64,000 nucleotides of DNA from Eremomyces bilateralis CBS 781.70 (taxonomy: Eukaryota), in the NCBI GenBank assembly GCA_010015585.1, contig ML975192.1; one strand, given 5' to 3'. Under the pieces are notes generated by a model, which saw only the letters and a list, made by a program, of their open reading frames with translations, searched no databases and had not been told where the DNA came from. Positions 1 through 52,300 of the stretch are shown here, in pieces. Both the position numbers and the translations under genes were made by a program. How positions within the stretch are numbered: position 1 is the first letter of the stretch; every line of letters starts with the position of its first letter.

Positions 1-106
1 ACTGCGATCTGCTATTTACATCTGTGGGCAAACGGTCTACCCATCCCTTCTGCCTTAGGCCGCAAGGCCACAACACACAGACTGGGCAAAGCCCAAGACT
101 GTCACA
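1..106. mobile_element. LTR family A, copy 1 (cut by the window edge)
   Basis: Direct repeat of 5697-5802 with two G/A differences; ends ...GACTGTCACA. Confidence 0.8.
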
Positions 107-483
107 CAACCTACTAGTACGGAGGATCTCGGTTTTTATATCGATTTACATCCTGAGTTCTGATATATAGATGATGGTAGTAAAATTGTACTTTTGGCCT
201 GGGTTGTGGTTTTGGTCTGGGAGCACCCACAACCTCCGGTTGTGGGGCGGTCATGGGGCACGGATATGCCTCTGTAGCATCACAGAAACTAGGGTCCGAA
301 ATAAAGAGTAGAAACTGGACATCGGTGCGATGTTCGATGGAATAACTAGAGTATAGCATAGCACAGTGTGGCTAGATTATCGCCCAAGTTCAAGTGAACT
401 ATAATAGATTCATATACAGGTCGCGTGAAGACACGATTTTGTGCTTGTATTTCTTATCATGACCGTCAAATGAGCCCCCGAAT

Positions 484-3400
484 TCAACCCTGCCATCTTC
501 GTCCTATCTTTTCATTCGTTGTCGTTTCATTCGAAGGTGTTGTCTGATTCAATGATAACGCCTCATCAAGCGCCTCCGTTTCATTCAGGAATCTCGATAC
601 CGTCGACATCGCTGGCTTACCACACCCTTGCCCAGCTACATTGAAGTGGTAGTCTCGGGAAACCATACATCCATTCCCGAAATGTTTTGTCCCGCAGGAC
701 TTGCAAGTCGAAAATCTCATGATGTCTTGATATGCTTGCCACATATCTTTACCAGAGATGGTACACGACTTGCCAGTTTCGTCCTTGCCTTGAACATATA
801 CTTTGCATCCCTGACCTATGAGGCTATCGAGGGAGCACATCCCACTCTTTGGAAGTGCTTGATTGGCTTCGTATATCGTGTCCGGTTCATTCAGAAGGAA
901 ACTGGCAGCCAAGTCGCAGTTCTTGACTGTATTCAGAGCGTGCCCGCAAAGGGGTGCACCCTGACAATCGTAAGCTCTTTGGCCGATGCAGTACGCGTTG
1001 TCGGTGCCCTTCTTCTCCGACATATCGCTTGGGCATGGAAGAAAAACGTTAGTAAACCGATTGTAGCCTTCCGTTTGAATGACGGCATAGGTTGGATCCA
1101 CTCCCTCATTCGATGTTCCCATCGGGATAACCCACTTGAAGTGAGTTTTGTCTCGAGTAATTTTGACATTGTTGCGCTCTCCAACTTCCTTCCATTTGAA
1201 TTCGCGATTGTCGTTGGCATCAGCTGTAGCGGGTCCATCATATTTGAATAATGTTGAGCCTTCAACCATATAATGAGCAGTAACAAAATTGGGGCCATAG
1301 GATATTGGCCATGCACCCCAATTGTGGTATCTGCTATCATCCGTGAAGTAAATGCGGATAAAACCATAAGGAAGGAGGACATTTGCTTCAATTGTCGTCT
1401 CTGTAGGCGAGGTTTTGATCTTGACGTCCCGCACAACACGACCATCAAGTCCCTTGGTTGCTCCACCGTGGGGGTTAGAAGCATCTCCCATCTTGCCATC
1501 AGCGCCAATAGCCTTGACAGTCACCACCATAGCCTTTGTCTCTATTAGGATATTCCCGATAGTGACCTTGCGCATGAAACCTGGTAAGCGGACTAGTTCT
1601 TCCTCGCCGGTATATACGGCGAATCCATAGGGGTTCCCCCCGGGGTGGCTCCATTCGACATGAAGAGAGGTGTAGTCCAGGCCAGTGACTTTTGTAACCG
1701 GCTTCCCTGGTGAGCTTCCACCGTTATAAGACGAAAGATGGTCCTGAATAAGAGGGCTGCCACCTGGAACGAAGTTGATGATTTTGTCCATGTATGTTTC
1801 GCTTGGAAGAGAGTTGTAAGGATTTGGCATGACTGCGGGAGTGATGTGAATAAGACCTGCTTTATTTTCGGCGGCCAACTTAGCTACCTCGACCGCTCTG
1901 TCCTCCGGAACTTGATAGATGATATGCCATATCTTTCGAGGGTCGCTTGGTTTCCAATTAATCTCGGTATAGTTCTTCATGATGTAGTTTTCGTAACTAC
2001 TCTCGAAAGTCATGAGCGTATCCGAGCTACGAGTCGTTAGCTGCGTGCGTACAAGACATAAATTGGAGCGAGAAAGCCATGTACGAACCTATTTTCGTAG
2101 CACTTTTCCACTCCGGTTCCAGGATTGAGCACGGTGTAAGCTCCAGGATATTTACGTTTGGTATTATCGCTGATGAATTGATAAACTTCGGCCCACCTAT
2201 TAGGATTGCTTGTATCACCGCATTGATTCCATCCTTCATCAAAGAAGATGCCTCCTATTTTATCTGCCCCATATAACCTAAATTAAGTTAATACTGGACG
2301 CTGAATTCTTGAGCTTTGTGTACTTACTTGTACCATAAATCTACGTCACGTTCGATTTGAGCGACCCAGTCTTCCACTGTTCGTGAGCCCAGCCGAGTTT
2401 CAAATGGTTCAAACTTTGGGTCATCGGAGGTAGCCAATCCAAGGTACCCTGTTCTCACATAGCCAATAACTTTCTTCTTCTTAGCCACTGCCTCTGTGAG
2501 AACGGCCATCCACTTTTTATTAACAGCCACGTCCGGGCCGTTCAGGACATTTGCAACCAGGACGCTGACTTTGTCATTGGGATAGGCGATCATTCTCCTC
2601 CATAGATCGTACCCTCCTCCTGGGTGGATGTAAGAAGCAAGAGCTACTTGTTCTGTGGTCAAGAATGTTAGTTAAATTACTTGAACCACGTTATGCGGCG
2701 GTTAAATGAAGGATCAAGTACTTACGGCCAGCGTCGCCGCCCGAGCCTCCTGGTGTCGATGGGTTAGGGCCTGTCTCATTGCCCGGTTGGGGGAGGGGAC
2801 CTTCTATTACGCCAGGCACTGCGTCGATCTGGGCAACGAGGGCCTCGAATTCTGCGCCGATGGCAGCGGCGCTGATGTCCCTCGCGACGCCGCCGACGTC
2901 GGGGCAGCCGGGGCGGAAGATATCGTTGCCGGAGTCGTATGGCGGGTCAGACACGGTGTCGTCCGGCTGCGCGGGCTCGGTCTCGAGGAGGGGCGGTCCG
3001 CCGTCCACGTCGCGTGGCTCCTGCAGCGGCGCCATCCTCCTGACATTGGGCCTGTCCGGGTAGACGAGAATCTGCTTCTGGACGTACTTGGCCATGGCGA
3101 ACCAGGCAAAGTTGTCGGCGTTGCGCTGTGGATAGTAACCCGACCACTGGGCAGTGTTATAGGGCGGTGGCTCGACATAGTTGGCCAGCACCTTGGCGAA
3201 CAGCGGCCCGTACATGGACTCCCACGAGCGCCTGCCGTTCCAGATGACATTGCTCTGTAGGTCGCGCACGTAGGGACTCGACGCGTTGGCGTTCATGAAA
3301 TAGTTGAGATGGGTGATCTCGTGGAAGAAGACACGGGCGTGGTTGTCCCAGTTCATGAGGTCCTTTTTCTCCGGCAGGGTCTTGCCGCTGTTCACGGCGG

Positions 3401-4115
3401 TAATCTCGCCCAGGGTCTTAAGGTTGAAGAACTCGGCGCAGAAAGTGATACGGTCGTACCATAGGGTGGGGTCCCTGCCGTAGCCCCGCGTGTTCTCGCT
3501 GAAGGCCTGTGACTTCATCTGGTGTGCCTGTCCGACTGGCGGCTGGCCAGTCCTGGAGCATTGTCCGTTGTTGGTCGCATCACCGCAGGCGTTCGTGGGA
3601 TCCGTGCTATCAGGGCCCGCCTTGCCGTCGCTGCAGCGTACCTCGATCCACAGGAAGCGGAACGACGAGGCTGGATTTCCGATGAGTCGGCTCCACGGGT
3701 ACTCCCAAATTTGGGCGGCTTGGTGATAGATCTGCTTGATTTCAGCCCTCGTATCGTCCGTAAGCGGCCACTGGTTGATCGGAGTGTTCTTGCCGCCCCA
3801 GAAATCCGTCGCGGCCTGAAGCTTCCACTGAATATCATTGAGCTCGCCCAGTGCAGCAATCTGCTGGAAGTCGCGAAAGGCTTGCTGGATGACATGAACG
3901 CGGTCGCCGATGCCGTTGCAACCCTTGAATCCGTACAGCCGCGTGCCTCGGAGGTTTTCTATCGCGATCGGGCTGCCGTCGTCGTTATTTAGTGGCGGAT
4001 ACGGCTGGATTGGATCGTTTGTAAAGTCGGGCGCGACGTCCCAGACGGTAAGAGCGGCCGCAACGTGCAGCAACACCAGCCCGCTCTGTAGCAGCTGAGC
4101 GAGGAAACGAGCCAT
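484..4115 (-). CDS. Secreted multidomain protein (~1148 aa): signal peptide, M35/aspzincin-like metalloprotease, Pro/Gly linker, spherulin-4 (GH135) domain, FN3, beta-rich domain, C-terminal KP4-like Cys-rich domain
   Basis: Three GT-AG introns (2653-2725, 2278-2327, 2027-2088) join the track ORFs in frame (3447 nt). Motifs: MARFLAQLLQSGLVLLHVAAA signal; FFHEITH and RNADNFAWFA; VIGYVRTGY, GGIFFDEG, VLNPG, LMTFE (spherulin-4); YDCQGAPLC...CTISG...CKSCG...(KP4 pattern). Confidence 0.8.
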
Positions 4116-4612
4116 CGCGTTTGTAAGCTGACTGTGACGTTCTCCTTGGGTATGTCTAGAGCGCTTTGAAGGCACGCAGCCCGCGTATATAAGCACCTTA
4201 GACTCTGGCGTGTAAACATTTTACTACCTGGCCGAAGCCCTGCTATCGTTGCGTCGAACGGGGCCATGTTGAATAAAATTTGATATTCCACTTCTAGAGT
4301 GCAGGAACAATGTTGCGAAGAGTTGGATGCCTTTCCTAGACACTTACCCTTGCGGGCAGATAGAAAACTGCCCATGCCCCGCTGTTTCTCTTTCAAGGGT
4401 CCGTTAACTCGGAAAAACCCTTACGCGCTTTGCTCCCTATCGAATCCTTTGATCCTTCGCCCGTTTTATTTTAGGTCCGCGGATTTCCAGACTGCGAGCA
4501 AGTAAGCAAGCACAGGCCGATACCAGACCAAACTGTCCGTACGGATCAAATACGGCATCGTCGCATCCCACCATAAGCAACACGCCTCCACCGCTTGCTT
4601 CAAGCTCCAACG

Positions 4613-5371
4613 ATGAAGACACCTGCAGACAGATGTGAGTACATACAGGGCCCCTCTGCCAACAATACGTCTAGGCTCGAGCTGACTGCAACTTGGGAAA
4701 AAGGGGCAGAGCCCAGGCCGAAGCCCAAACCGTCGCCGCCGGAACGCTCGCGTGTCGTGCTTCTGGACGACAGCGTTTCCGTCTGGGGGTGGCCGTCACG
4801 TGGCGGCCTGATCGTGCTCGAGCAGGCCACCGCCCTCGACTTCGAGATGCTGCAGCTCGACAGCGTCAATCTGGCCCTGGCCCGCGACGACGACCGCGCC
4901 CGCGAGGACGAGCACTGCCAGCGCCTGCTCTGGCTCGGTGCCAGGTGGTTCGACAGTCGCGAGAGGTACGGCTTCGTGTGGAACCTCTCGAGGCAACTGT
5001 CCCCTGCCATCTCGGCCGTCGAGCGAGGCGAGCAGCCTGCGCCGACGAGGCCGGAGCGCTGGTGGGTCCGCGTCGCATTCTCTAACGGCCAGGATCCGCA
5101 TGGCGGTTTCTGGGTGGGCGAATGGGACTCCCGTATATACGGTTCGCGAGGCGACAGGCAGGCGCCAGTACATCTCGACGCCGCTCAAATTGCCCTCGCG
5201 CGTAACATGGGCGAGAAGTGCAGGATCCTCGAGGCTCTGGGGGCCACGTACTTTGACAGTCTGGACAGCTACCGGGGAGAGGCGTGCGTGAATGCCTGGC
5301 ACCATAAGCACACTGGGGAGTTCGGGCCCTTAGTCATCCACGACCACCAAGGCGTCAACGGTGACGACTAG
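4613..5371 (+). CDS. Hypothetical protein (~252 aa), GC-rich, divergent from the multidomain gene
   Basis: Uninterrupted ORF from ATG 4613 with GC3-biased codons and globular composition; no family recognised. Confidence 0.55.
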   Translation: MKTPADRCEYIQGPSANNTSRLELTATWEKGAEPRPKPKPSPPERSRVVLLDDSVSVWGWPSRGGLIVLEQATALDFEMLQLDSVNLALARDDDRAREDEHCQRLLWLGARWFDSRERYGFVWNLSRQLSPAISAVERGEQPAPTRPERWWVRVAFSNGQDPHGGFWVGEWDSRIYGSRGDRQAPVHLDAAQIALARNMGEKCRILEALGATYFDSLDSYRGEACVNAWHHKHTGEFGPLVIHDHQGVNGDD

Positions 5372-5573: not shown

Positions 5574-5802
5574 TGTCACGGATTGATACTGGATGATGTA
5601 AAATCAAGGTAGTATGTCATGGGCCCAAACCACGAAGGATTTAGTAAGCTGGTAACGCTATTGAATTGCTAAAGAGAGAAGGAAAAGATCTCTCTTACTG
5701 CGATCTGCTATTTACATCTGTAGGCAAACGGTCTACCCATCCCTTCTGCCTTAGACCGCAAGGCCACAACACACAGACTGGGCAAAGCCCAAGACTGTCA
5801 CA
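5574..5802. mobile_element. LTR family A, copy 2 (229 bp, TG...CA)
   Basis: TGTCACG...CTGTCACA ends; right part matches 1-106; no TSD found. Confidence 0.75.
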
Positions 5803-6612
5803 CATGACACCGATTCGCGATATCTTCTTATCGTTATTACGCGTGAGCCATTATAGTCGATACGAACTCGTGGTGCTATTTTAGTTTCCGGGCTATCTCT
5901 ACTCCTTTCTATTCCTTACTAGTTAATAGCGCGTTATCGTTAGGGTTCGGGTCTGGTAGCTAGAGATAGTCTCCTAAGTTCGGGTGATACCCATAGCTTA
6001 AGAAAAACGGGCTTATTGCTGTCGATGAGGCCGTTCGTGCGAGCACGGAGGCTTAAAGAGTTAGGAGGTGCTCGTCCTAATTATCTTAGAAGAAATCGTA
6101 GAAGTGTCGGAGGTACTCTTCTAAGACCTAATTTATCCTTTCTATACTTCTATCGGTTTCTGGGTAAAAAGTAGTTAATAATCGTTACTTAATGACACGG
6201 TCTGGATGCGCAAGGTCTGCGATTACCAAGTTCCATTAATCTAAACTGAAGAGAGAGAGAGAGAGAAGAAATCTCCCGGCACCTTTGTGCGCGAGATAGC
6301 GACTCTCCTCTCCAATGCCCTACTGCTGTGTTACCATGTTTGTTTGCTTCTCTGATATAATCCACCAGCCACGTCTTCAGCCACAACCAAGGGAACAGGC
6401 CACAGGCCTGGGACCATAACACTTAATTCCTAATATCTTATAGATTTATTTCTAGACTCCTTTAACGAAGTTATCTCCTCTGTCTGATATAATGGCTATT
6501 GGTAGCAAGTGGTATAGAATGTAGTGCTTAATCATCATAGCTGCTACTGTCTCTCCTTCCATATCTTTACAGGGGATAAAGATCGCGCCTTTGCCTAACC
6601 TGTCAACAATCC
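5803..6612 (-). pseudogene. RIP-degraded Ty3/Gypsy integrase fragment, interrupted by a solo LTR
   Basis: Translates to IVDRLGK...IISDRG...TTFYPETDRSIERIN*VLEEYLRHF...ISPFFLSYGYHP with TAA/TAG stops at expected Q/W codons. Confidence 0.85.
6193..6421. mobile_element. Solo LTR family B (229 bp) with 5-bp TSD CTTAA
   Basis: TGACACGG...CCATAACA flanked by CTTAA at 6188-6192 and 6422-6426; the integrase frame continues on both sides. Confidence 0.9.
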
Positions 6613-6743: not shown

Positions 6744-6883
6744 TGTAGAAGTATTGATACGTGATTGATTAATCTATCTAGGAGTATGGGAGGCCTCGGA
6801 GGAATAGGAGGTGACCACATGGTACTAGCCGTATTGGGATGTCACCTGACTCCCAACCTCTAGAGGATGGTTGATATCTAACA
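6744..6883 (-). mobile_element. LTR family C (140 bp), 3' LTR preceded by a polypurine tract
   Basis: Minus strand reads AAGGAGGAG|TGTTAGA...TTCTACA; an inverted partial copy lies at 8085-8205. Confidence 0.7.
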
Positions 6884-6996
6884 CTCCTCCTTAAACATCA
6901 TCTTCAGGGTAAGGCCGTCGTTAAGGTGGCTCACGCGGTGCTTCAGGGGCAGTTTGCCGTTCCGGGATGTCCGTGGGTGGTGTTGAAGGTGCTGGG

Positions 6997-7340
6997 TAAA
7001 GGGCTAGGTGGTTCTTGATCGGATTGAGGGCTTGAAATAGTGAGCCAGTAACGAGAGGTTATTCACCGTGTAAGCTGTGTCTCAGTAGTCCTTCCAGTTA
7101 AGGGCCTAGGTGGTTCTTGATCGGATTGAGGGCTTGAACAGTGAGCCAGTAATGAGGGGTTATTCACCGTGTAAGCTGTGTCTCAGTAGTCCTTCCAGTT
7201 AAGGGTCTAGGTGGTTCTTTGGTGATAAAGTCCTAAGATAGTTTCTTGGTCGGATTAAGGGCTTGAAAGCGGTAAGACAGTGACGTTGAGTTTATTTAAC
7301 GTGTGACGTGTGTATCAGTGGTCCTTTCCAGTTAAGGTGT
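6997..7340. repeat. ~102-bp tandem repeat, about 3 copies
   Basis: Unit CTAGGTGGTTCTTGATCGGATTGAGGGCTTGAA...CAGTAGTCCTTCCAGTTAAGGG repeated; third copy diverged. Confidence 0.9.
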
Positions 7341-7384
7341 GGTTCATGTTGTTGTCCTTCTTGTATATCGGTGGAGGGGTAGAA

Positions 7385-7790
7385 GGAGTCCCGCTCGATC
7401 AGCATATCTCTGGAGGGGAGCAGTGATCCCGCTCGATCAGTGTATCGCCGGAGGGGAGGAGTGATCCCGCTCGATCAGCGTATCGCCGGAGGGGAGGATG
7501 GTCTCTGTGGTACCGGAGGAGAGGATGGTCTCTGTGGTGCCGGAGGAGAGGATGGTCTCCGTGATGGGGTTGGTCGCCGTGGGAGAGGATGGTTCCCTCG
7601 GTGGCGAGGGATGACGGTAGAGAGGAGGTAGCTCCCCCGTAGCCATAGTATCGTGATGCTTATGGGTAGTATCAACGGGATTGATGGCTCCCCCGCAACC
7701 ATGGTATCACGATGCTTATGGGTGGTATATCGATCCATGCAGGCGGAGATTGATGGCTCCCCCGTAACCATGGCATCGTGATGCTTGTGG
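7385..7790. repeat. Cluster of minisatellites (~36-bp, 27-bp and ~60-70-bp units)
   Basis: TCCCGCTCGATCAG x3; GAGGATGGTCTC x3-4; CTCCCCCG(T/C)A(G/A)CCAT...GATGCTT x3. Confidence 0.85.
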
Positions 7791-8084
7791 TTGAAGTGTT
7801 CGCGTAGGTACGAGGTCTATGGCTCTCCGTGTCGTCGACGAGGTTAAAGAAGACCACGGTATGGATAGCTTCGGCAGAGGTGATAGGCTGTAAGGTCACG
7901 AGATGGTTGTGGGCATAGAGTGAGATGGTCACGAGTAATAGACGAGTAGTGGACGAGTCAAGCGGTATAGATTGATAATATCTGTGCCTCAATACTTAGA
8001 CTGATCCTTAAAGAAGGAGAAGGAGAAGGGTTCAATGAAGGGTCCTCAAATAGTGGCTCCATTGTGTTACACGTGACTTAGCAG

Positions 8085-8205
8085 TAGAGGTTAGGAGTCA
8101 GGTGACATCCCAATACGGCTAGTATCATTTGTGGTTACCTCCTATTCCTCCGAGGCCTCCCATACTCCTAGATAGATCAATCAATCACGTATCAATAATT
8201 CTACA
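8085..8205 (+). mobile_element. LTR family C, inverted partial copy
   Basis: Reverse complement of ~6744-6865 with few mismatches; ends TTCTACA. Confidence 0.8.
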
Positions 8206-21579: not shown

Positions 21580-22189
21580 CTATGCAGCATATGCTCAATA
21601 CATGCTCATATCATGTTTAGGGCGGGGAAGATGGCGCATATGCTTGTCACACGTGCCCAAGATGTTGAGTATGGGTTGGGTACATACCTTAAAGTGGTGA
21701 GATGTAAAAAAAGAAGAAGGATCTGGAAGGAAGAGCGACCATATGCACCAAATTCACATTGCGGTGTCCACTGTGGACGCGCAGCATATGTTGATATCAA
21801 AATTTTGAAAGATTTTATCAGGTGATTTGAGGCTTACGTAATTCACAGCAATCGAATTCAAAATTTACCAGTGAAATTACAGCGTATATAAATTACAAGC
21901 TAAAAGTTGAACGCAGGTAGAGAATTGCACCGCCACGGGCTATTTCTACCTGTGCTGAGATCGTACCTGTGACGAGGTTTTTCCGAACCTGCGCTGAACT
22001 GTAAGCCCAAATAGATAGCCGATCGCAGTGAGAGATATCTCTTCCTTTTCTCTTTAGCAATTCAACAGCGTTACCAGCTTACCAAATCCTTCGTGGTTTG
22101 GGCCCTCGACATCCTATACCGTTATTATCCGGTTACAATAGACTTTACATGGTTCGTATTCATTTATATAGATATACGACCTAAGACTA

Positions 22190-45136: not shown

Positions 45137-46362
45137 GTTGAAGAATTGCAACCGCTCGAGAATCTTGAATGGCTAGTACGAAACCCGAGTCAATGGCCAA
45201 GTCCAAGGCTTGAGCAGCCAACAGGGTCTTGAAGTATCAGAATAATTGCATAGATGAATCAAAGCAAGAGCCTCATCAAATTAGATCGAACCTGTGCGGC
45301 GTTGAAGCAGACTTTAATATAAGATTGAGCAGACAGTAGAAGGTAGCGATTAGACAATCTTGATTATGATTTTCTTCCACATTATGACCAATTTGGCAGG
45401 TCTTGGGGTAGATGCAGGAAACGTAAATTTCCACCAGACAGTTGGTGCAAGGCAAACTCGACCTTCCAAAAGCGCTACGGCTCCGATGGGATCCCATGCC
45501 TTAACGGTTGGGGATCATCCAGCATAGGAAATCCTGTACTCGTTTGTGATGGAATAATTGGATTAGATCAAACGACTTGCAGAACAGACAAACAACCAGT
45601 GTCACTGCCTCAAGGTTACCATCTCTAGACCGTCAACGATACAAAATGGAAAACTGGGAACAATAATATGCCGAGACTTCGTCGAGATGCCGTGATACGG
45701 TTGAGAAAGATCATCCGGATGGCTGGACGCGTAGGAGTCAGTCACAGCGATCAAAACTGGGAATGGATGATAGTTCGCATTGCTGCGAGCGTCAAGTTGA
45801 TAATGCTACATGGCAAAGGCATCACTGGGTGGGATTTGATGGCACTAAATGTTAGATGACAGTGTTATTATTGAAGAGTGCCATATTGACTTGGGCCGTT
45901 GCTGGATTGTTTCTGTTTAAGTTCATGCTCAGCAGTGAGCATTGGAGATTGATGAATCTTGAGTGAAGGGGACATACAACTGGCGCACGTGACATTGAAC
46001 TCGTTATTCGAATTTTAGCCTTGATGCCTTACGGCCCACCTCTGCCTTGGCGCACTGCACGTGACTCACCCACACTTTCAAACTTCATCAAGTCCATCTT
46101 GAAATCATATGCGAATCACCAAAGCATGTTGCGCCTGTTGCGACAGCACACTGATACCCAATTCCATCTTCATCGAGCTGCAGAGAGCAGTCCACCTATT
46201 TCTGGTGCCTTTTTCCTTTTCATTCGCGTCTCTTTATTTCGAGTTTAGACGCGTTTCACGATTCGACGACCAAGAAACTGGGAGTGAATCCCAACCCACC
46301 ACCCGACTTCCTGCCTAATATCCGCGAAACGCCATAATCAGGTCGTCGATATATCATTCAAT

Positions 46363-49300
46363 ATGGCGGACCAAAAGAAAGACAACCCGTTGGCGCAGTT
46401 CAAGTATTCGGCCATGTCGAATCTTGTTCTGCAGGCCGATAAAAGATTTGTGACAAGGCGTGGCGATGAGAATACGGGAGACCCCGAGTCGCTTGCCGGA
46501 CGCCTCAATATCCGGGATATGGGCTCGAGAACCGCACGAGAAAGCGCACCGATGCTGAAAAAGCCACGAGGAGGTGTCGATGTGGAGCGGGGCAGCATTC
46601 GGGAAGGTCAAGACGTCCTAGAAAAGCAACAGAAGAAACGAAAGCGAGATGGACAACAGTCCAAAGGCGCGGGAATCTTGTCACAACATGATCTCCTTGT
46701 TGAAGACCTCAAATACCGACCTCGTACCACCGCAACTCAGGCCACTTACGACTTGATCACGACGATTGTAGGCAGGCATCTTGGTGATGTCCCGAGTCAC
46801 GTCACTCGTAGTGCCGCGGATGCTGTCCTGGAGTATTTGAAAGACGAGGCATTGAAGGATTTTGACAAAAAGAAGGAAATCGACGATATACTTGGCGTCA
46901 CTATGGGCTCGAAGGAGTTTAATGAGCTAGTCAATCTTGGGAAGAAAATCACCGACTACGATGCACAAGACGAAGACGAGGATATGGAGGATGCGGGTGA
47001 GGCCGAGGAAGGGGGAGATTTGGACGAACGGCAAGGCGTAGCCGTGGTCTTCGATGATGACGAGGAAACGGAAGAAACACAAGCCTTTGAAGTCCATGAC
47101 GGGGATGAATCTGAAGCCGAGGACGTCACTGGTGAGGTCCCTGAGGAGACAATTGGAGGTGCCGAAGCTCCGGAAGAGACTGGCGAGGGCGATGAGATGG
47201 AGATCGGGGAAACGGTCATCACAACCGGCGGACGAGGCCGCGACCGAACACATGACCGATCTATTCCAGTACACGAAATCGACGCATACTGGCTTCAACG
47301 GCAAATCGGTCAAGTCTACGAAGACGCCCACGTCCAGCAAGAGAAAACAGCAGAGGCATTCAACATCCTTGCCGGTCAATCGGATGATGGTGAGGAGAAG
47401 GCTGCGCGAGAAATCGAGAACGACTTGATGGAACTCTTCGACTATGAGCATCACGAGCTCGTAGCTAAACTTTTCATCAACCGTGATCGGATCGTATGGG
47501 TTACCAAGTGGCGACGAGCAGCGGACCGAGACGAGCAAACTGCAGTCGAACGGGAAATGATCGCATCTGGTCACCGAAAAATCCTATCTGAAATTCGAGC
47601 TCGAGAAGGCGACGCTTTAGTTGATGAGCCTAGCAAAATCAAGATGGATCTCATGGAAGTCGACGTTCCGGAGACCAAGGGCAAGACCGTAGCCCAGCCT
47701 ACGGAAGAGGGGTTGGTTGGTGGGTTGCAACCGAAACGACTCATCAACCTGGAGAATCTGGTTTTCGATCAAGGAAATCACCTCATGACCAATCCCTCAG
47801 TGAAGCTCCCCAAAGGAACCACCAAGCGCACATTCAAAGGCTACGAGGAGATCCATGTCCCTGCACCACTGCCCCGTAAAGACGCCAGCGACTTCCCTGA
47901 CATGCCCACGTCGGAAATGCCAGCTTGGGCTCGTCAAGGATTTGGGTCGGCTTCCAAACTCAATCGAATCCAAACCAAGTGCTTCCCCGTCGCATTTGAA
48001 GGGGATGAGAACATGCTGATCTGCGCCCCGACAGGTTCAGGGAAAACGAATGTCGCAATGCTTGCTATCCTTCGGGAAATCGGAAAACATTTGAACCCGA
48101 CCACCGGAGAGATCGATTACGACGCGTTCAAAATCATCTACATCGCTCCGCTCAAGGCTTTGGTGCAAGAACAAGTTGGCAACTTTGGCAAGCGGCTCGA
48201 ACCACTCGGGATTCGCGTTGCAGAGCTTACTGGAGATCGCCAGCTCACGAAGCAACAAATCGTGGACACACAAATCATTGTCACTACTCCTGAAAAATGG
48301 GATGTCATCACACGAAAGGCAACCGATACGAGCTACACGAATCTGGTTCGTCTCATCTGCATCGATGAGATCCATCTTCTTCACGATGATCGTGGACCCG
48401 TCCTTGAAAGCATCGTCAGCCGGACTATCCGCCGGTCTGAACAGACGGGTGACAATGTGCGCTTGGTCGGGTTGAGCGCCACATTACCCAACTTCCGTGA
48501 TGTTGCGGCATTTCTCCGAGTCGATCCTAAGCAAGGGATGTTCCATTTCGATGCGACCTACCGTCCGACCCCGTTGAAACAAGAGTACATTGGTGTCAGC
48601 GACAAGAAAGCGATTAAGCAGTTGAAAACCATGAACGATGTCTGCTACACCAAGGTGCTGGAACAAGTGGGAGCCCAACGCAACCAAATGCTCATTTTCG
48701 TCCACTCGCGAAAAGAGACGGCAAAGACGGCGAAATACATTCGAGATAAGGCCATGGAGCTGGACACTATCGGGCAGATTCTTCGCACGGATGCGGCGTC
48801 ACGAGAAATCCTTCGTGAAGAAGCCGAAGGCGTTGCAAATGCCGATCTAAAGGATCTGATGCCATATGGGTTTGGGATTCATCATGCGGGCATGAGCCGA
48901 GCCGATCGAACATCGGTGGAAGACCTTTTCGCGGACGGTTCCATCCAAGTTCTAGTCTGCACTGCCACGTTAGCATGGGGAGTCAATCTTCCGGCTCACA
49001 CCGTCATCATCAAGGGCACTCAGATCTATTCGCCGGAGAAAGGCAGCTGGGTTGAATTGAGCCCTCAAGATGTGCTGCAAATGCTTGGTCGAGCCGGTCG
49101 CCCTCAATACGACACCTTCGGGGAGGGTATCATCATCACCACCCAGACGGAGGTGCAGTACTACCTTTCTCTCCTGAATCAGCAATTGCCGATCGAATCC
49201 CAATTCATTAGCAAGCTGGCGGACAACCTCAACGCCGAAATTGTGCTTGGCACCATCCGGAATCGTGATGATGGTGTGGATTGGTTAGGTTACACGTATC

Positions 49301-52300
49301 TCTTTGTACGCATGCTTCGATCCCCGGGTCTCTACAGCGTCGGTGCCGACTATGAGGAGGATGAAGCCTTGGAACAAAAACGAGTGGATTTGATCCACTC
49401 TGCGGCGACGGTACTGGCGAATTCCCATCTCATTAAATACGACGCAAAGACGGGTCGGATCCAATCCACGGAGCTAGGCCGCATCGCTTCCCACTATTAC
49501 ATCTCGCATGCATCCATGGCCACCTACAATCAGCACCTTCAACCGTCGATTACATCTATCGAAATGTTCCGAGTGTTTTCTCTCAGCCAAGAGTTCAAGT
49601 ACATCCCGGTACGGCAAGACGAAAAGCTGGAGCTCGCGAAGCTGCTTGGACGTGTGCCAATTCCGGTCAAAGAGAGCATTGATGAACCCCACGCGAAAAT
49701 CAACGTTCTTCTCCAAGCTTACATTTCGCGCCTCAAGCTGGATGGATTGGCGCTCATGGCCGATCTGGTCTATGTGACACAATCAGCTGGCCGAATTCTT
49801 CGAGCGATATTCGAGATCGTGCTGAAGAAAGGGTGGGCGTCGGTTGCAAAAACTGCCCTGAGTCTCTGCAAAATGGCTGAAAAGCGAATGTGGCCGACGA
49901 TGACCCCCCTTCGGCAATTCCCGAGTTGTCCGAGGGATATAATCCAGAAATCGGAACGAATTGATGTCCCTTGGACGAATTACTTCGATTTAGATCCACC
50001 TCGAATGGGAGAATTGTTGGGGATGCCAAGAGCGGGCAGGACCGTGTGCTCTCTCGTTCAAAAGTTCCCACGCCTTGAAATTGAAGCCCAAGTTCAACCC
50101 ATGACAAGGACCGTCCTTCGCGTTCAATTGTCATTACGACCAAACTTTGAATGGGATGATGACGTCCATGGTCTCGCCGAGTTATTCTGGGTGCTCGTTG
50201 AGGACTGTGATGGAGAGGATATCCTCTTTCACGACCAGTTCCTCCTTCGAAAGGATTATGCCACGGCCGACACGAATGAGCACATCATGGAATTCACGGT
50301 CCCAATCGCCGAGCCGTTGCCGCCCAATTACTTCATCAGCGTCATCTCCGATAGATGGATGCATGCCGAAACACGTATTGTTGTATCTTTCCAACAGCTG
50401 CAACTTCCGGCCAAGTTCCCGTCTCATACCCAACTGCTTGACCTTCAACCGCTCCCCGTTGCGGCTCTAAAGCGTCCGGACTACCAGAAACTTTATGCTC
50501 ACTGGGGACGGTTCAACAAGATTCAAACGCAAGTCTTCAATGCGTTATTTTCGTCCGATGAGAATGTCCTCGTGGGCTCCGCTGCCGGAACTGGCAAGAC
50601 AGCATGCGCGGAGTTTGCTCTCCTACGGCACTGGATGAAGGCGGATGACAGCGCCACTCCAAAAGCGGTGTACGTTGCTCCGTTCCAGGAATTGATCGAC
50701 ATTCGACACAAAGACTGGCAGTCACGATTGGCATCGGTCCCCAACGAGAAAGAGATTGTGAAGCTCACTGGCGATGTGACGGCGGATTTGCGTCTTCTGG
50801 AGAAAGGTGACCTGATCCTTGCAACACCAGCGCAGTGGGATCTGATATCGAGATCGTGGCAGCGTCGAAAGAACGTTCAACGAGTCACACTCTTCATCGC
50901 GGACGATCTTCATATGATCGGTGGTCAGAACGGACATATATACGAGAGCGTGGTCTCCCGTATGCATGCGATGTCGCTGCAACTCGAGTCAGGGCTGCGA
51001 ATTGTGGGTTTGAGCGTATCTCTGGCTAACGCACGCGATGTGGGAGAGTGGATCGGAGCGAACAAGCACACGATCTTCAACTTCAGCCCTCAAGTTCGCG
51101 CTGTGCCTCTCGAACTTCACATTCAATCGTTCACGATCCCACACTTTCCATCCTTAATGCTGGCCATGGTGAAACCGACATACAACGCAATCCTACAATT
51201 GTCCACCGACAAGCCCACCATGGTCTTCGTCCCCAATCGGAGACAAGCACGAGCAACTGCAGCCGACTTGCTGAGCTGCTGTGTTGCCGAAGATGAGGAA
51301 GATCGGTTTTTGTACGCTCCTCAAGAGCAGCTGGCGCCAATCCTGGAAAAGATTAACGAAAGATACCTGGCTGAATCGTTGTCTCATGGCATCGGCTACT
51401 TCCATGAAGCCCTCACTGATTTTGATAAAAAGGCAGTGGAACATCTTTTCCGAGTTGGGGCCATACAGGTCATGCTCGTTTCCCGAGATTCGTGCTGGGA
51501 AATTAATTCTACCAGCCACCTTGTCATCGTCATGGGCACCCAATTCTACGATGGTCGAGAGCATCGATACGTGGACTATCCGCTCAGTGAAGTACTCCAG
51601 ATGTTTGGAAAAGCCGGACGGCCGGACATGGACAAGAGCTGTAAGGGTGTCCTCTTCGTCCCCCAAGTCAAACGAGAGTACTACAAGAAATTCTTGAACG
51701 ATGCGTTACCGGTCGAGAGTTATCTTCAAGGGGAGATGGCGGATACATTTATCGCTGAAATCAGCGCGCGTGTGATCTCATCCACTCAGGATGCCGTCGA
51801 TTGGACCACCTACACGTACTTCTACCGCCGTTTGCTCGCCAATCCAAGCTTCTACGGCCTCACCGACACATCTCATGAAGGCTTGAGTTCCCACCTCTCG
51901 GAACTAGTTGAGACAACGCTGAAAGAGTTGGAAGAAGCGAAAATGATCACCATCGAGGAGGATGAGGAAGGCGAAGATTCCATCGAACCGCTCAACCCCG
52001 CCATCATCGCTTCTTACTATAACATCTCCTTCGTCACCATGCAGACATTCTTGTTGTCGCTAAATGCGAAGACCAAACTAAAAGGCATCGTCGAGATCGT
52101 CACATCGGCTACAGAATTCGAGGACATTCAGATCCGACGACACGAGGACCACGTTCTTCGCCGGATCTACGATCGACTCCCGTACAAAATGGCGGAAGCC
52201 AGCTACGAATCGCCTCATTTCAAGGCCTTTGTTCTGGTCCAGGCACACCTGTCACGGATGGAGCTGCCGATCGATCTAGCGAAAGATCAAGAAGTCATCC

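What the first reader, a model, noticed from the sequence alone, without database searches (positions are those of the whole stretch)
484..4115. One secreted polypeptide fusing a zincin protease, a GH135 hydrolase, FN3 and a KP4-like toxin
Seen: three separate track ORFs plus one unlisted exon splice into a single frame of ~1148 aa with intact HEITH, GIFFDE and TFE motifs and a Cys-rich end. Known: GH135/Sph3 enzymes cleave galactosaminogalactan; KP4 blocks fungal calcium uptake; KP4 domains are known as fusions to GH18 chitinases. Inference: an analogous antagonism module that breaches a rival's matrix with a protease and a GAG hydrolase instead of a chitinase. I do not know this architecture from described proteins.
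Basis: partly seen in the sequence, partly recalled or inferred. Interest (0 to 1): 0.75.

Follow-up and report, generated by a model that had tools for sequence, protein, structure and literature searches.

The report
Secreted five-module protease–GAG-hydrolase–KP4-fold fungal protein
A fungal gene really does encode one long secreted protein that strings together a zinc protease, a slime-sugar-cutting enzyme and a killer-toxin-shaped end piece, and it belongs to a wider, unstudied family in which the front enzyme is swapped from species to species.

Summary
Observation confirmed. On the minus strand, four exons (4115-2726, 2652-2328, 2277-2089, 2026-487) give one 1148-aa frame. One 3889-nt transcript contig of a public run, 100% identical, lacks exactly the three GT..AG introns, including 2653-2725. 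The deposited model (949 aa, Eremomyces bilateralis) uses the same splices but starts at Met200, losing the signal peptide and half of the protease fold.

Domains:
- An aspzincin (M35) fold with intact HEITH (Z 16.2 to deuterolysin). It matches no Pfam or PDB sequence.
- GH135/Sph3-like, with the catalytic Asp-Glu and Glu conserved.
- FN3, then a beta-sandwich.
- Pfam MU117. Its model's best match among 48,161 PDB chains is KP4 (Z 7.7), then Zt-KP4. It is not Pfam Kp4.

The architecture is not unique. GH135-FN3-sandwich-MU117 is a conserved fungal backbone with a swappable N-terminal slot: SGNH esterase mostly (Aspergillus), aspzincin, subtilisin, or aspzincin plus SGNH. Aspzincin fusions arose at least twice. 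Here the module boundary coincides with intron 1 and with a GC3 step (about 0.78 to 0.50).

Function is untested. The most likely role is an extracellular matrix-breaching or antagonism enzyme, comparable to Hce2-GH18 chitinases. I rate it a new variant of a known kind, of moderate interest.

The parts
4116..4312 (-). 5' leader covered by the transcript contig. It holds two upstream ATGs (4267, 4219) of one 92-codon uORF in another frame that overlaps the main ATG, and a TATA-like TATATA at about 4176-4184.
2726..4115 (-). Exon 1 (codons 1-463 plus 1 base): signal-like peptide, aspzincin-fold domain, Pro/Gly-rich linker. GC 0.61, GC3 0.68-0.88.
4050..4115 (-). Signal-peptide-like N-terminus MARFLAQLLQSGLVLLHVAAAL (residues 1-22). 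Inferred from the sequence and from the matching N-terminus of homologue P0031; no predictor was run.
3036..4034 (-). Aspzincin (M35)-fold metallopeptidase-like domain, residues about 28-360. HEITH is at 3323-3309. Conserved D285, Y302-G303, N332 and D334.
2653..2725 (-). Intron 1 (73 nt, phase 1), exactly at the module boundary and at the GC3 step.
1783..2652 (-). GH135 / Spherulin4 domain (residues about 465-716), interrupted by introns 2327-2278 and 2088-2027. D585-E586 (GIFFDE), N623-P-G, E643 (TFE).
1474..1692 (-). FN3 domain (residues about 747-819). It is below the Pfam cut-off here (14.4 bits); 11 of the 21 relatives scanned score 23.9-38.9 bits.
1069..1434 (-). Beta-sandwich domain (residues about 833-954). 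Ig/CBM-like, with no specific family.
637..972 (-). MU117 (PF15474) domain with a KP4-type alpha/beta-sandwich fold (residues about 987-1098; 10 Cys).
484..636 (-). C-terminal tail (residues 1099-1148) with three N-x-S/T sites. It is predicted as a low-confidence helix, with no hydrophobic end. Stop codon at 486-484.
239..483 (-). 3' UTR as far as the transcript contig reaches. The last about 61 nt are inferred from the contig length.

Best explanation
This is a real, transcribed gene for one 1148-aa secreted multi-enzyme protein. In order it has a signal peptide, an aspzincin-fold Zn peptidase (HExxH intact), a flexible linker, a GH135 Sph3-like endo-alpha-1,4-N-acetylgalactosaminidase (catalytic Asp/Glu and Glu intact), FN3, a beta-sandwich, a Cys-rich MU117 domain with the KP4 fold, and a glycosylatable tail.

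It is one variant of a fungal family built on a conserved GH135-FN3-sandwich-MU117 backbone. The N-terminal position of that backbone is a swappable slot for a second hydrolase.

The most likely mode of action is inferred, not shown. The protein is released outside the cell. The GH135 module cuts GalNAc-rich exopolysaccharide (fungal galactosaminogalactan, possibly bacterial Pel-type polymer), while the N-terminal peptidase cuts matrix or wall proteins. The C-terminal KP4-fold module then acts at the exposed cell surface, either as a binding module or as a growth-inhibiting module. That would make it an interference-competition, matrix-breaching enzyme, parallel to the Hce2-bearing GH18 chitinases.

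The Eremomyces variant probably arose when a GC-rich block carrying the peptidase exon and its promoter region was joined through an intron to the start of the backbone.
For: SHOWN
- Splicing and a single frame. The deposited model uses the same junctions.
- Aspzincin fold. Foldseek's top 8 PDB hits are all M35-fold proteins (deuterolysin 1eb6, GfMEP 1g12/1ge6, AsaP1, Pra1). VIA gives Z 16.2, rmsd 2.3 A, with 171 of 177 residues of 1eb6 aligned. H265, E266 and H269 are conserved in 59/60, 58/60 and 57/60 relatives.
- GH135. Spherulin4 scores 109.6 bits against a cut-off of 30.2. GIFFDE, NPG and TFE align to GIFFDE, NPG and VFE of Sph3 (5c5g). D585/E586 are conserved in 23/23 and E643 in 22/23 family members. 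Glu222 of Sph3 is named as catalytic in PMC12054363 (passages).
- KP4 fold. Of 48,161 PDB representatives, rank 1 is KP4 1kpt_B (Z 7.7, rmsd 3.0, 88 of 105 residues) and rank 2 is Zt-KP4 8acx (Z 6.9). With PF15474 excluded, the two best named ESM-Atlas clusters are Kp4 (0.82, 0.79). PMC12382754 (section 2.8 read) places a PF15474 representative in KP4 structural Group 3, and its title and abstract say KP4-type Zymoseptoria effectors inhibit fungal growth.
- Family and slot. All 30 longer relatives carry PF12138, and 26 of 30 carry PF15474. N-terminal typing of 32 proteins gave 25 SGNH-like, 4 aspzincin-like, 1 subtilisin and 2 unknown. Among 37 metagenome loci, 6 were aspzincin (one of them aspzincin plus SGNH), 11 SGNH-like, 2 subtilisin, 1 P0024-type and 17 untyped.
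- Repeated fusion. An AU test rejects the four aspzincin-bearing backbones as one clade (p 0.00018). The aspzincin-domain tree forces at least 2 origins.
- Composition. GC3 is 0.68-0.88 in exon 1 against 0.38-0.60 in exons 2-4. Other window ORFs of 200 aa or more lie at 0.44-0.64, apart from the neighbouring ORF (0.77) and one antisense ORF.
- Analogy. Hce2 domains occur on C-II GH18 chitinases, and deleting A. nidulans ChiC2-2 reduces killing of other fungi, as cited in preprint 10.1101/2024.10.25.620242 (passages).
- Context. None of the 15 large ORFs of the window scanned against Pfam is a GAG-synthesis gene.
Against: - No activity of any module has been tested.
- Z 7.7 for KP4 lies in the range that the tool says unrelated models also reach. 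The model of this part has a mean pLDDT of only 65, and 70-88 within the domain.
- There is no sequence-level link to KP4. Pfam Kp4 is absent at E<=10 and a profile search of PDB sequences found nothing relevant.
- The same fold search lists lectins and glycan binders just below KP4: Gnk2/DUF26 at Z 6.1-6.2, Y3 at 5.9 and LDL lectin at 5.0. One aspzincin relative carries a fungal lectin domain (P0114). The C-terminal module may therefore only bind sugar.
- The third zinc ligand is not identified, and the contiguous aspzincin motif is absent.
- Sph3 itself works in the producer's own GAG synthesis (PMC12054363, PMC11356417 passages), so self-remodelling is a serious alternative.
- The whole genome is not held, so I could not check whether the fungus has its own GAG cluster.
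- The transcript contig's leader holds a strong-context uATG, which leaves use of the start codon open.
- The trees contain long branches.
Confidence: 0.45

Rival explanations
1. Self-remodelling enzyme. The protein trims the producer's own galactosaminogalactan and wall proteins during development or sporulation, and the MU117 domain anchors it to the producer's own wall.
For: - Sph3 and GH135-1 act in the producer's own GAG pathway (PMC12054363, PMC11356417 passages).
- The family names (spherulation-specific, meiotically up-regulated) come from developmental expression, as stated in the Pfam descriptions.
- Lectin-type folds score close to KP4.
Against: - The gene is not in a GAG cluster in this 64-kb window.
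- It has a signal peptide rather than the membrane anchor described for Sph3 (PMC11356417 passage).
- The N-terminal enzyme is swapped repeatedly among relatives. That pattern is more usual for proteins facing foreign targets, though this is an inference.
Confidence: 0.3
2. The C-terminal domain is a KP4-type toxin that blocks calcium uptake in rival fungi, and the two enzymes serve only to deliver it.
For: - KP4 and Zt-KP4 are the two best structural matches.
- Kp4 clusters are the best named feature matches.
- The PDB title of 1kpt names calcium-channel inhibition.
- KP4-type Zymoseptoria effectors inhibit fungal growth (PMC12382754 title and abstract).
Against: - It is not a Pfam Kp4 member and shows no sequence match to KP4.
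- It falls in structural Group 3, separate from UmV-KP4's Group 1 (PMC12382754 section 2.8).
- There is no KR/RR processing site in the linker before the domain, only KK at residue 973.
- Residue-level comparison with KP4's functional residues could not be made.
Confidence: 0.2
3. Nutritional enzyme of a saprobe. It digests GalNAc-rich polymers and proteins of dead fungal or bacterial biomass, and the FN3, sandwich and MU117 modules act as substrate-binding modules.
For: - The layout of catalytic modules followed by FN3, a beta-sandwich and a small Cys-rich module is typical of secreted polysaccharide-degrading enzymes. The sandwich matches glucodextranase and CBM9-type domains at Z 5.0-6.3.
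Against: - It does not explain the recurrent swapping of the N-terminal hydrolase.
- It does not explain the use of a killer-toxin fold.
- No growth data exist.
Confidence: 0.15
4. Two products. Intron 1 is often retained, giving a stand-alone 479-aa peptidase that stops at 2693-2691, and the fusion is only a minor isoform.
For: - The unspliced frame stays open for 16 more codons and then stops.
- Stand-alone homologues of the peptidase are the majority.
- Contigs drop rare variants.
Against: - The only contig found is the spliced one.
- The GH135 part has no start codon or signal peptide of its own. Exon 2 begins at Pfam profile position 1 of the domain.
- Uninterrupted aspzincin-GH135 frames exist in L001, L002 and L010.
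Confidence: 0.05

Closest known systems
Sph3 of Aspergillus fumigatus / A. clavatus (CAZy GH135; PDB 5c5g, 5d6t)
   Same: - It belongs to the Pfam Spherulin4 family (109.6 bits).
- The GIFFDE, NPG and xFE motifs align, so the catalytic Asp/Glu and Glu are kept.
   Different: - Sph3 is a single-domain, membrane-anchored enzyme encoded in the GAG synthesis cluster (PMC11356417, PMC12054363 passages).
- Here the domain is the second of five modules of a signal-peptide protein, and it lies outside any such cluster in this window.
- Pairwise similarity to Sph3 is weak (phmmer E 0.16).
Aspzincins, MEROPS M35: deuterolysin (1eb6), Grifola peptidyl-Lys metalloendopeptidase (1g12), AsaP1 (2x3a-c); also Pra1 (9n47)
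   Same: - The fold matches (Z 13.3-16.2, with nearly the whole of the small enzymes aligned).
- The HExxH motif has its Glu present.
   Different: - There is no sequence-level match to Pfam or the PDB.
- The fold carries about 120 extra residues of insertions, including a Cys-containing loop and a beta-hairpin between conserved D285 and Y302-G303.
- The contiguous GTxDxxYG motif (recalled, not from a call) is not present as such.
- No separate propeptide was identified.
Killer toxin KP4 of Ustilago maydis virus P4 (1kpt), Zt-KP4 (8acx), and Hce2 domains on C-II GH18 chitinases (e.g. A. nidulans ChiC2-2)
   Same: - It has the same alpha/beta-sandwich fold.
- It is small and Cys-rich.
- Like Hce2 on chitinases, it sits on a wall- or matrix-degrading glycoside hydrolase (preprint 10.1101/2024.10.25.620242 passages).
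   Different: - The Pfam family is MU117, not Kp4 or Hce2.
- It falls in KP4 structural Group 3, not Group 1 or 2 (PMC12382754 section 2.8).
- The partner enzyme is GH135, not GH18.
- Toxicity is untested.
Uncharacterised 'fibronectin type III domain protein' / 'Spherulation-specific family 4-domain-containing protein' of Aspergillus (P0002-P0022), Tothia, Cadophora
   Same: - The GH135-FN3-sandwich-MU117 backbone is the same, at 33-45% identity.
- The junction ...G-QQ-[VI]-A-L-A-S-Y is the same.
   Different: - Their N-terminal module is an SGNH/GDSL-type hydrolase, not an aspzincin.
- I found no paper on them.

Membership tests
CAZy GH135 / Pfam Spherulin4 (PF12138) | Match to the family profile above the curated cut-off | tested here: met
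   P0001 (residues 200-1148 of the product) scores 109.6 bits against a cut-off of 30.2, covering profile positions 1-234 of 239.
CAZy GH135 / Pfam Spherulin4 (PF12138) | Catalytic acidic residues of Sph3 (Asp/Glu of GIFFDE; Glu222) | tested here: met
   The alignment to 5c5g/5d6t pairs GIFFDE with GIFFDE and TFE with VFE. D585/E586 are conserved in 23/23 and E643 in 22/23 family rows. Glu222 is named in PMC12054363. The numbering Asp166/Glu167 is recalled; that paper prints Asp196.
CAZy GH135 / Pfam Spherulin4 (PF12138) | Endo-alpha-1,4-N-acetylgalactosaminidase activity on GAG | not testable with these tools
   A biochemical assay is needed.
Aspzincin, MEROPS M35 | HExxH zinc-binding and catalytic motif | tested here: met
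   HEITH is at residues 265-269. H, E and H are conserved in 59/60, 58/60 and 57/60 rows.
Aspzincin, MEROPS M35 | Aspzincin fold | tested here: met
   Z 16.2, rmsd 2.3 A, 171 of 177 residues of 1eb6 aligned; 1g12 gives Z 14.9 and AsaP1 15.0-15.3. Model pLDDT is 76 and pTM 0.81.
Aspzincin, MEROPS M35 | Third ligand Asp and Tyr in a GTxDxxYG motif (motif recalled) | tested here: inconclusive
   There is no contiguous motif. D285 (57/58) and Y302-G303 (55/57, 57/57) are conserved but lie 17 residues apart, across a predicted hairpin. D334 is D in 49 and E in 6 of 56 rows. No coordinates were available to check the geometry.
Aspzincin, MEROPS M35 | Match to the Pfam M35 profiles (Aspzincin_M35) | tested here: not met
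   The window protein has no hit at E<=1. Of 8 relatives scanned, only P0034 hit, at E 0.59. A profile search of PDB sequences gave 0 hits.
Pfam Kp4 (PF09044), KP4 killer toxins | Match to the Kp4 profile or sequence similarity to KP4 | tested here: not met
   There is no PF09044 hit at E<=10. The profile of 6 MU117 domains did not hit 1kpt in PDB sequences.
Pfam Kp4 (PF09044), KP4 killer toxins | KP4 alpha/beta-sandwich fold | tested here: met
   Ranks 1 and 2 of 48,161 chains are 1kpt_B (Z 7.7, 88 of 105 residues) and 8acx_A (Z 6.9). The Z values are moderate. Support comes and PMC12382754 section 2.8.
Pfam Kp4 (PF09044), KP4 killer toxins | Growth inhibition by blocking Ca2+ uptake | not testable with these tools
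   A bioassay is needed.
Pfam MU117 (PF15474) | Match above the curated cut-off | tested here: met
   55.2-56 bits against a cut-off of 30.4, covering profile positions 1-102 of 105.
Pfam fn3 (PF00041) | Match above the curated cut-off | tested here: inconclusive
   The window protein scores 14.4 bits against a cut-off of 25. In the aligned region, 11 of 21 relatives scanned score 23.9-38.9 bits. This part was not modelled.

The most novel reading that the evidence does not exclude
These proteins are a fungal counterpart of bacterial polymorphic toxins. A conserved carrier (GH135-FN3-sandwich) ends in a KP4-fold warhead and carries an exchangeable N-terminal 'breaching' enzyme (esterase, metalloprotease, serine protease, or two of them). 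That enzyme is shuffled between lineages under competition. The Eremomyces allele would have been made recently by capture of a compositionally foreign, GC-rich block (peptidase exon plus divergent neighbour gene) that is spliced on through a new intron.
Probability: 0.2. Interest if true: 0.7.

Novelty: new variant of a known kind. Interest (0 to 1): 0.45.

Why it matters
GH135 is known almost only from Sph3, an enzyme of the producer's own galactosaminogalactan pathway. This finding shows a widespread secreted form in several classes of Ascomycota, including Aspergillus fumigatus. It is permanently coupled to a KP4-fold domain and to a second, interchangeable hydrolase.

If the family acts on foreign matrices, it would be a new class of fungal antagonism or anti-biofilm enzymes. 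It would also be a second case, after the Hce2-GH18 chitinases, of a killer-toxin fold riding on a wall-degrading enzyme.

Two further points come out of the work. The N-terminal domain defines an aspzincin-fold family of at least 271 representative sequences with no match in the Pfam copy used. The deposited gene model needs a 199-residue N-terminal extension.

Tried and rejected
- Sequence searches of the PDB with the N-terminal domain, alone and as a 60-row profile, gave 0 hits.
- The 271-aa C-terminal part alone gave only a chance chitinase row at E 0.24. The MU117 profile gave only GLD-1 rows at E 0.9-1.7.
- Foldseek of the sandwich+MU117 model against the PDB and BFVD listed only Ig-like or unrelated rows with E above 0.001. 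The sandwich filled the lists, so these searches say nothing about KP4.
- hhalign of the MU117 profile against P0114, which carries Fungal_lectin_2, gave probability 0.3, so no link was shown.
- The word-index search for short MU117 proteins gave 1 hit among only 8 candidates.
- No listed holder of the stretch is on record as RNA. The single holder X1 is labelled 'RNA?'; its spliced contig is what identifies it as RNA-derived.
- No whole genome is held for this window. Paralogues, a GAG cluster and the copy number of the flanking repeat therefore could not be examined.
- The first metagenome scan, with P0029, found no relative.
- The idea that the boundary intron is an ancient, shared shuffling point was rejected as a general rule. 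In L001, L002, L004, L010, L031 and L032 the N-terminal module and GH135 are contiguous in one frame.
- Pfam on the neighbour ORF 4613-5368, on two further ORFs, and on the unknown N-terminal modules of L012 and L037 gave nothing.
- Earlier-scan notes gave nothing near this place or like this sequence. The word search returned only unrelated GH135 notes from other genomes.
- Bamford et al. 2015 (PMC4645995) is not held.
Full report
OBSERVATION

The feature lies on the minus strand. Reading the sequence gives an ATG at 4115 and exon 1 down to 2726. A GTAAGT donor follows, then a CTAAC branch-like site and a CACAG acceptor (intron 2725-2653). After that come exon 2 (2652-2328), intron 2 (2327-2278), exon 3 (2277-2089), intron 3 (2088-2027) and exon 4 (2026-487), with the stop at 486-484. 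Joined in a script, these make 3444 coding bases, or 1148 residues, with no internal stop.

The only public run that holds the stretch is X1, labelled 'RNA?' and kept as contigs. It contains one 3889-nt contig that lies on window 4312 to 300, and about 61 nt further, with no differing letter. The contig has exactly three skips of 73, 50 and 62 nt, all with GT..AG ends on the minus strand. So a spliced transcript joins the HEITH exon to the GH135 exons.

The deposited protein of this organism is P0001 (949 aa, 'hypothetical protein P152DRAFT_425554 [Eremomyces bilateralis CBS 781.70]'). It is letter for letter residues 200-1148 of my product. The annotators therefore used the same three introns but started at an internal Met.

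The longer start is the better one, for three reasons:
- Residues 1-22 look like a signal peptide.
- Residues 13-200 align with homologues from their own signal peptides onward.
- The structural match to aspzincins needs residues 58-353.

Caveats remain. A contig gives no transcript ends, levels or rare isoforms. Its leader contains two upstream ATGs (4267, 4219) of a 92-codon uORF that overlaps the main ATG. A TATA-like element near 4180 suggests, without showing, that most transcripts start downstream of them.

WHAT THE MODULES ARE

N-terminal domain. It has no Pfam hit and no PDB sequence hit, but it belongs to a sizeable family. HMMER found 271 representative proteins at E<=0.001, of which 136 were at E<=1e-10. 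The word-index search found 16 named or unnamed fungal proteins, from Oidiodendron, Monosporascus, Byssothecium and several lichen fungi. Some of these UniRef calls 'Lysine-specific metallo-endopeptidase domain' proteins.

An AlphaFold2 model built on 60 sequences has pLDDT 76 and pTM 0.81. By Foldseek, its top eight PDB matches are all M35-fold proteins. VIA-align gave Z 16.2 with rmsd 2.3 A and 171 of 177 residues aligned to deuterolysin 1eb6. It gave Z 15.0-15.3 to AsaP1, 14.4-14.9 to the Grifola peptidase and 13.3 to Pra1; the next row drops to Z 4.3.

H265, E266 and H269 are conserved in 59/60, 58/60 and 57/60 rows. D285 (57/58), Y302 (55/57), G303 (57/57), N332 (54/57) and D334 (49 D plus 6 E of 56) are also conserved. 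Which Asp is the third zinc ligand I could not tell. D285 and Y302-G303 flank a predicted beta-hairpin and may be a split version of the aspzincin Asp/Tyr motif. That is an inference, and the motif itself is recalled.

GH135. Spherulin4 is split over exons 2-4 in register (profile positions 1-89, 96-149, 151-234) and scores 109.6 bits on the spliced product. The alignment to Sph3 (5c5g, 5d6t) pairs GIFFDE, NPG and TFE with GIFFDE, NPG and VFE. In 23 family members D585/E586 and NPG are invariant, and E643 is present in 22. PMC12054363 (passages) names an Asp and Glu222 of Sph3 as the verified catalytic pair. It describes GH135 as retaining alpha-N-acetylgalactosaminidases that prefer acetylated GAG.

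FN3. It is weak here (14.4 bits) but clear in relatives.

C-terminal 323 residues. The model (23 sequences, pLDDT 65) shows a beta-sandwich at model residues 8-129, a disordered Cys-containing linker, and an alpha/beta domain at 174-271 with pLDDT 70-88. Foldseek lists were filled by Ig-like hits. The search that does not depend on Foldseek, against 48,161 PDB representatives, ranked KP4 toxin 1kpt_B first (Z 7.7, rmsd 3.0 A, 88 of 105 residues, model 172-273) and Zt-KP4 8acx second (Z 6.9). Below them came DUF26/Gnk2 (6.1-6.2), the glycan-binding Y3 (5.9) and the LDL lectin (5.0). The sandwich matched glucodextranase, CBM9 and Ig-type domains at Z 5-6.3.

A Z of 7.7 is moderate by the tool's own note, but three further lines agree with it:
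- Pfam calls the domain MU117 (PF15474, 55-56 bits).
- With PF15474 clusters excluded, the two best named ESM-Atlas clusters are Kp4 (0.82, 0.79), with an Hce2-containing cluster at rank 5. These are leads only.
- PMC12382754 (section 2.8 read) places the PF15474-bearing representative kcl38-A in structural Group 3 of the KP4 superfamily. That group is separate from UmV-KP4 (Group 1) and from Ecp2/Hce2 (Group 2).

By sequence the domain is not a Kp4 member.

THE FAMILY AND ITS VARIABLE SLOT

The search for longer relatives of exon 4 returned 30 proteins. All carry PF12138, and 26 carry PF15474 in the precomputed column. They come from many Aspergillus species, including A. fumigatus, A. lentulus and A. 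tubingensis, and from Tothia, Cadophora, Lachnellula and Peltaster. Sources name them 'fibronectin type III domain protein' or 'Spherulation-specific family 4-domain-containing protein'. The junction ...G-Q-Q-[VI]-A-L-A-S-Y is conserved.

What differs is the N-terminus.
- 25 are SGNH/GDSL-like.
- 4 are aspzincin-like (window, P0046, P0061, and P0028 of Lachnellula).
- 1 is a subtilisin (P0029).
- 2 match neither (P0024, P0025).

A metagenome scan gave 37 further loci. Local tblastn typed their N-terminal modules:
- 6 are aspzincin (L001, L002, L007, L010, L011, L021).
- 11 are SGNH-like.
- 2 are subtilisin (L006, L017).
- 1 is P0024-type (L037).
- 17 are untyped, mostly for lack of upstream sequence.

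L007 has aspzincin, then SGNH, then the backbone. L007 and L010/L011 also show the MU117 part, so the complete five-module architecture exists in other fungi. HExxH is intact in L001, L002, L007 and L010. The aspzincin module also occurs with SGNH alone (P0073, P0070) and with an alpha-galactosyl-binding fungal lectin domain (P0114).

On a tree of the backbone, the window protein pairs with the SGNH-bearing Tothia protein (SH-aLRT 88, long branches). The tree had 23 rows; nine near-identical A. fumigatus rows were left out. An AU test rejects the four aspzincin-bearing backbones as one clade (p 0.00018, lnL difference 60). I had defined that group, before the tree was made. On a tree of the aspzincin domain (58 of 61 rows kept), starred branches force at least two origins of the fused state. 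The front enzyme has therefore been exchanged or added repeatedly.

HOW THIS ALLELE MAY HAVE ARISEN (INFERENCE)

Exon 1 ends exactly where the variable module ends, and composition changes there. GC is 0.61 against 0.42-0.49, and GC3 is 0.68-0.88 against 0.38-0.60. Among 29 ORFs of 200 aa or more in the window, the rest lie at GC3 0.44-0.64. The exceptions are exon 1 (0.75), the divergent neighbour ORF 4577-5368 (0.77) and one antisense ORF. A GC-rich block of about 2.7 kb, containing the peptidase exon, the shared upstream region and the neighbour ORF, thus abuts the backbone at intron 1.

The intron is not a conserved shuffling point. In L001, L002, L004, L010, L031 and L032 the two modules are contiguous in one frame. 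The two-gene unit is flanked by direct copies of a repeat (1-108 and 5697-5804, 98%). The meaning of this repeat could not be pursued, because no genome is held.

FUNCTION

Nothing has been tested, so what follows is reasoning. All catalytic signatures are intact, the protein has a signal-type N-terminus and many Cys, and it lies outside any GAG cluster in this window. That makes an extracellular enzyme acting on GalNAc-rich matrix likely.

I favour an antagonistic, matrix-breaching role (0.45) for three reasons:
- The N-terminal hydrolase is repeatedly exchanged.
- KP4-superfamily proteins that have been tested inhibit fungal growth (PMC12382754, title, abstract and section 2.8).
- A precedent exists. 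Hce2, a KP4-fold relative, sits on C-II GH18 chitinases, and loss of A. nidulans ChiC2-2 lowers killing of other fungi, as cited in preprint 10.1101/2024.10.25.620242 (passages).

Whether the MU117 domain is a warhead or a lectin-like anchor is open, since lectins of the same fold score nearly as well. The rivals are self-remodelling of the producer's own GAG during development (0.3), the strict Ca2+-channel-toxin reading (0.2, a sub-case of the antagonism role), nutrition on microbial necromass (0.15), and a mainly unfused peptidase made by intron retention (0.05).

I recall, without a call, that Sph3 also disrupts Pel biofilms of Pseudomonas. If so, bacteria would be possible targets too.

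NOVELTY

Each module belongs to a known kind, and the backbone family is present, unnamed, in public annotation. I found no paper on it. The searches were 'GH135 + fibronectin type III + Aspergillus' (0 papers), 'spherulin + KP4' (1 unrelated paper), 'PF12138 + PF00041' (0) and 'spherulin + fibronectin type III + fumigatus' (0). PF15474 occurs in 3 papers, none about this architecture. Subscription journals and supplements were not searched.

The aspzincin-headed form is a rare variant, seen in 4 of 32 proteins and 6 of 37 loci. I rate the finding a new variant of a known kind, solid in its anatomy, with moderate interest. Its value lies mainly in pointing to an unstudied family of modular secreted GH135 enzymes carrying a KP4-fold domain.

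Noticed in passing
window 3519-4115 (-): The deposited gene model (P0001, 949 aa) starts at Met200. It omits 199 residues, including the signal-like peptide and the first half of the aspzincin fold. Homology and the transcript contig support the ATG at 4115.
   Followed up: yes
window 1-108 and 5697-5804; also 22012-22116 (inverted): Direct repeats of at least 108 nt (98% identical, 5696 nt apart) flank the two-gene unit made of the fusion gene and the GC-rich neighbour. The first copy is cut by the window start. A related piece (89.5% over 105 nt, matching 5610-5714) lies inverted at 22012-22116. This is probably a dispersed element.
   Followed up: partly
window 4577-5368 (+): A divergently oriented ORF (252 aa from its first Met at 4613) has GC 0.64 and GC3 0.77, the same unusual composition as exon 1. 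It has no Pfam match and its identity is unknown.
   Followed up: partly
window 4219-4267 (-), uORF to 3989: The transcript contig's leader contains two upstream ATGs in one frame. The first is in the context CAACATGG. They open a 92-codon uORF that overlaps the main start codon. Depending on the true start site, this is either a translational control element or irrelevant.
   Followed up: no
window 6744-8205: Inverted repeats (76-nt arms 96% complementary, plus 47-nt arms 94%) enclose about 1.3 kb that is full of short tandem families with periods of 27-38, 56-69 and about 101 nt. GC skew is strong (0.26-0.34) across roughly 6750-8100. It looks like a repeat-rich element or a repetitive gene.
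   Followed up: no
L007:4331-8618: A metagenome contig encodes aspzincin-like, SGNH-like, GH135, FN3, sandwich and MU117 parts in one direction, that is three hydrolase modules on one backbone.
   Followed up: partly
P0114 (651 aa); P0073 (669 aa); P0070 (1196 aa): The aspzincin-like module also occurs fused to an alpha-galactosyl-binding fungal lectin domain (PF18647), to an SGNH hydrolase, and to SGNH plus FG-GAP repeats. It is a promiscuous module of secreted fungal proteins.
   Followed up: partly
L012:641-2100; P0024/P0025 residues 1-415; L037:3569-4919: At least two further N-terminal modules sit on the same GH135 backbone with no Pfam match and no similarity to the aspzincin, SGNH or subtilisin modules.
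   Followed up: partly
window 46288-53007 (+) and others: The rest of the window holds ordinary housekeeping genes: a Brr2-type spliceosomal helicase, a Kelch/DUF4110 protein, an Ofd1-type oxygenase, a TauD-family dioxygenase and a fungal transcription factor. There is no GAG-synthesis or secondary-metabolite cluster next to the finding.
   Followed up: partly
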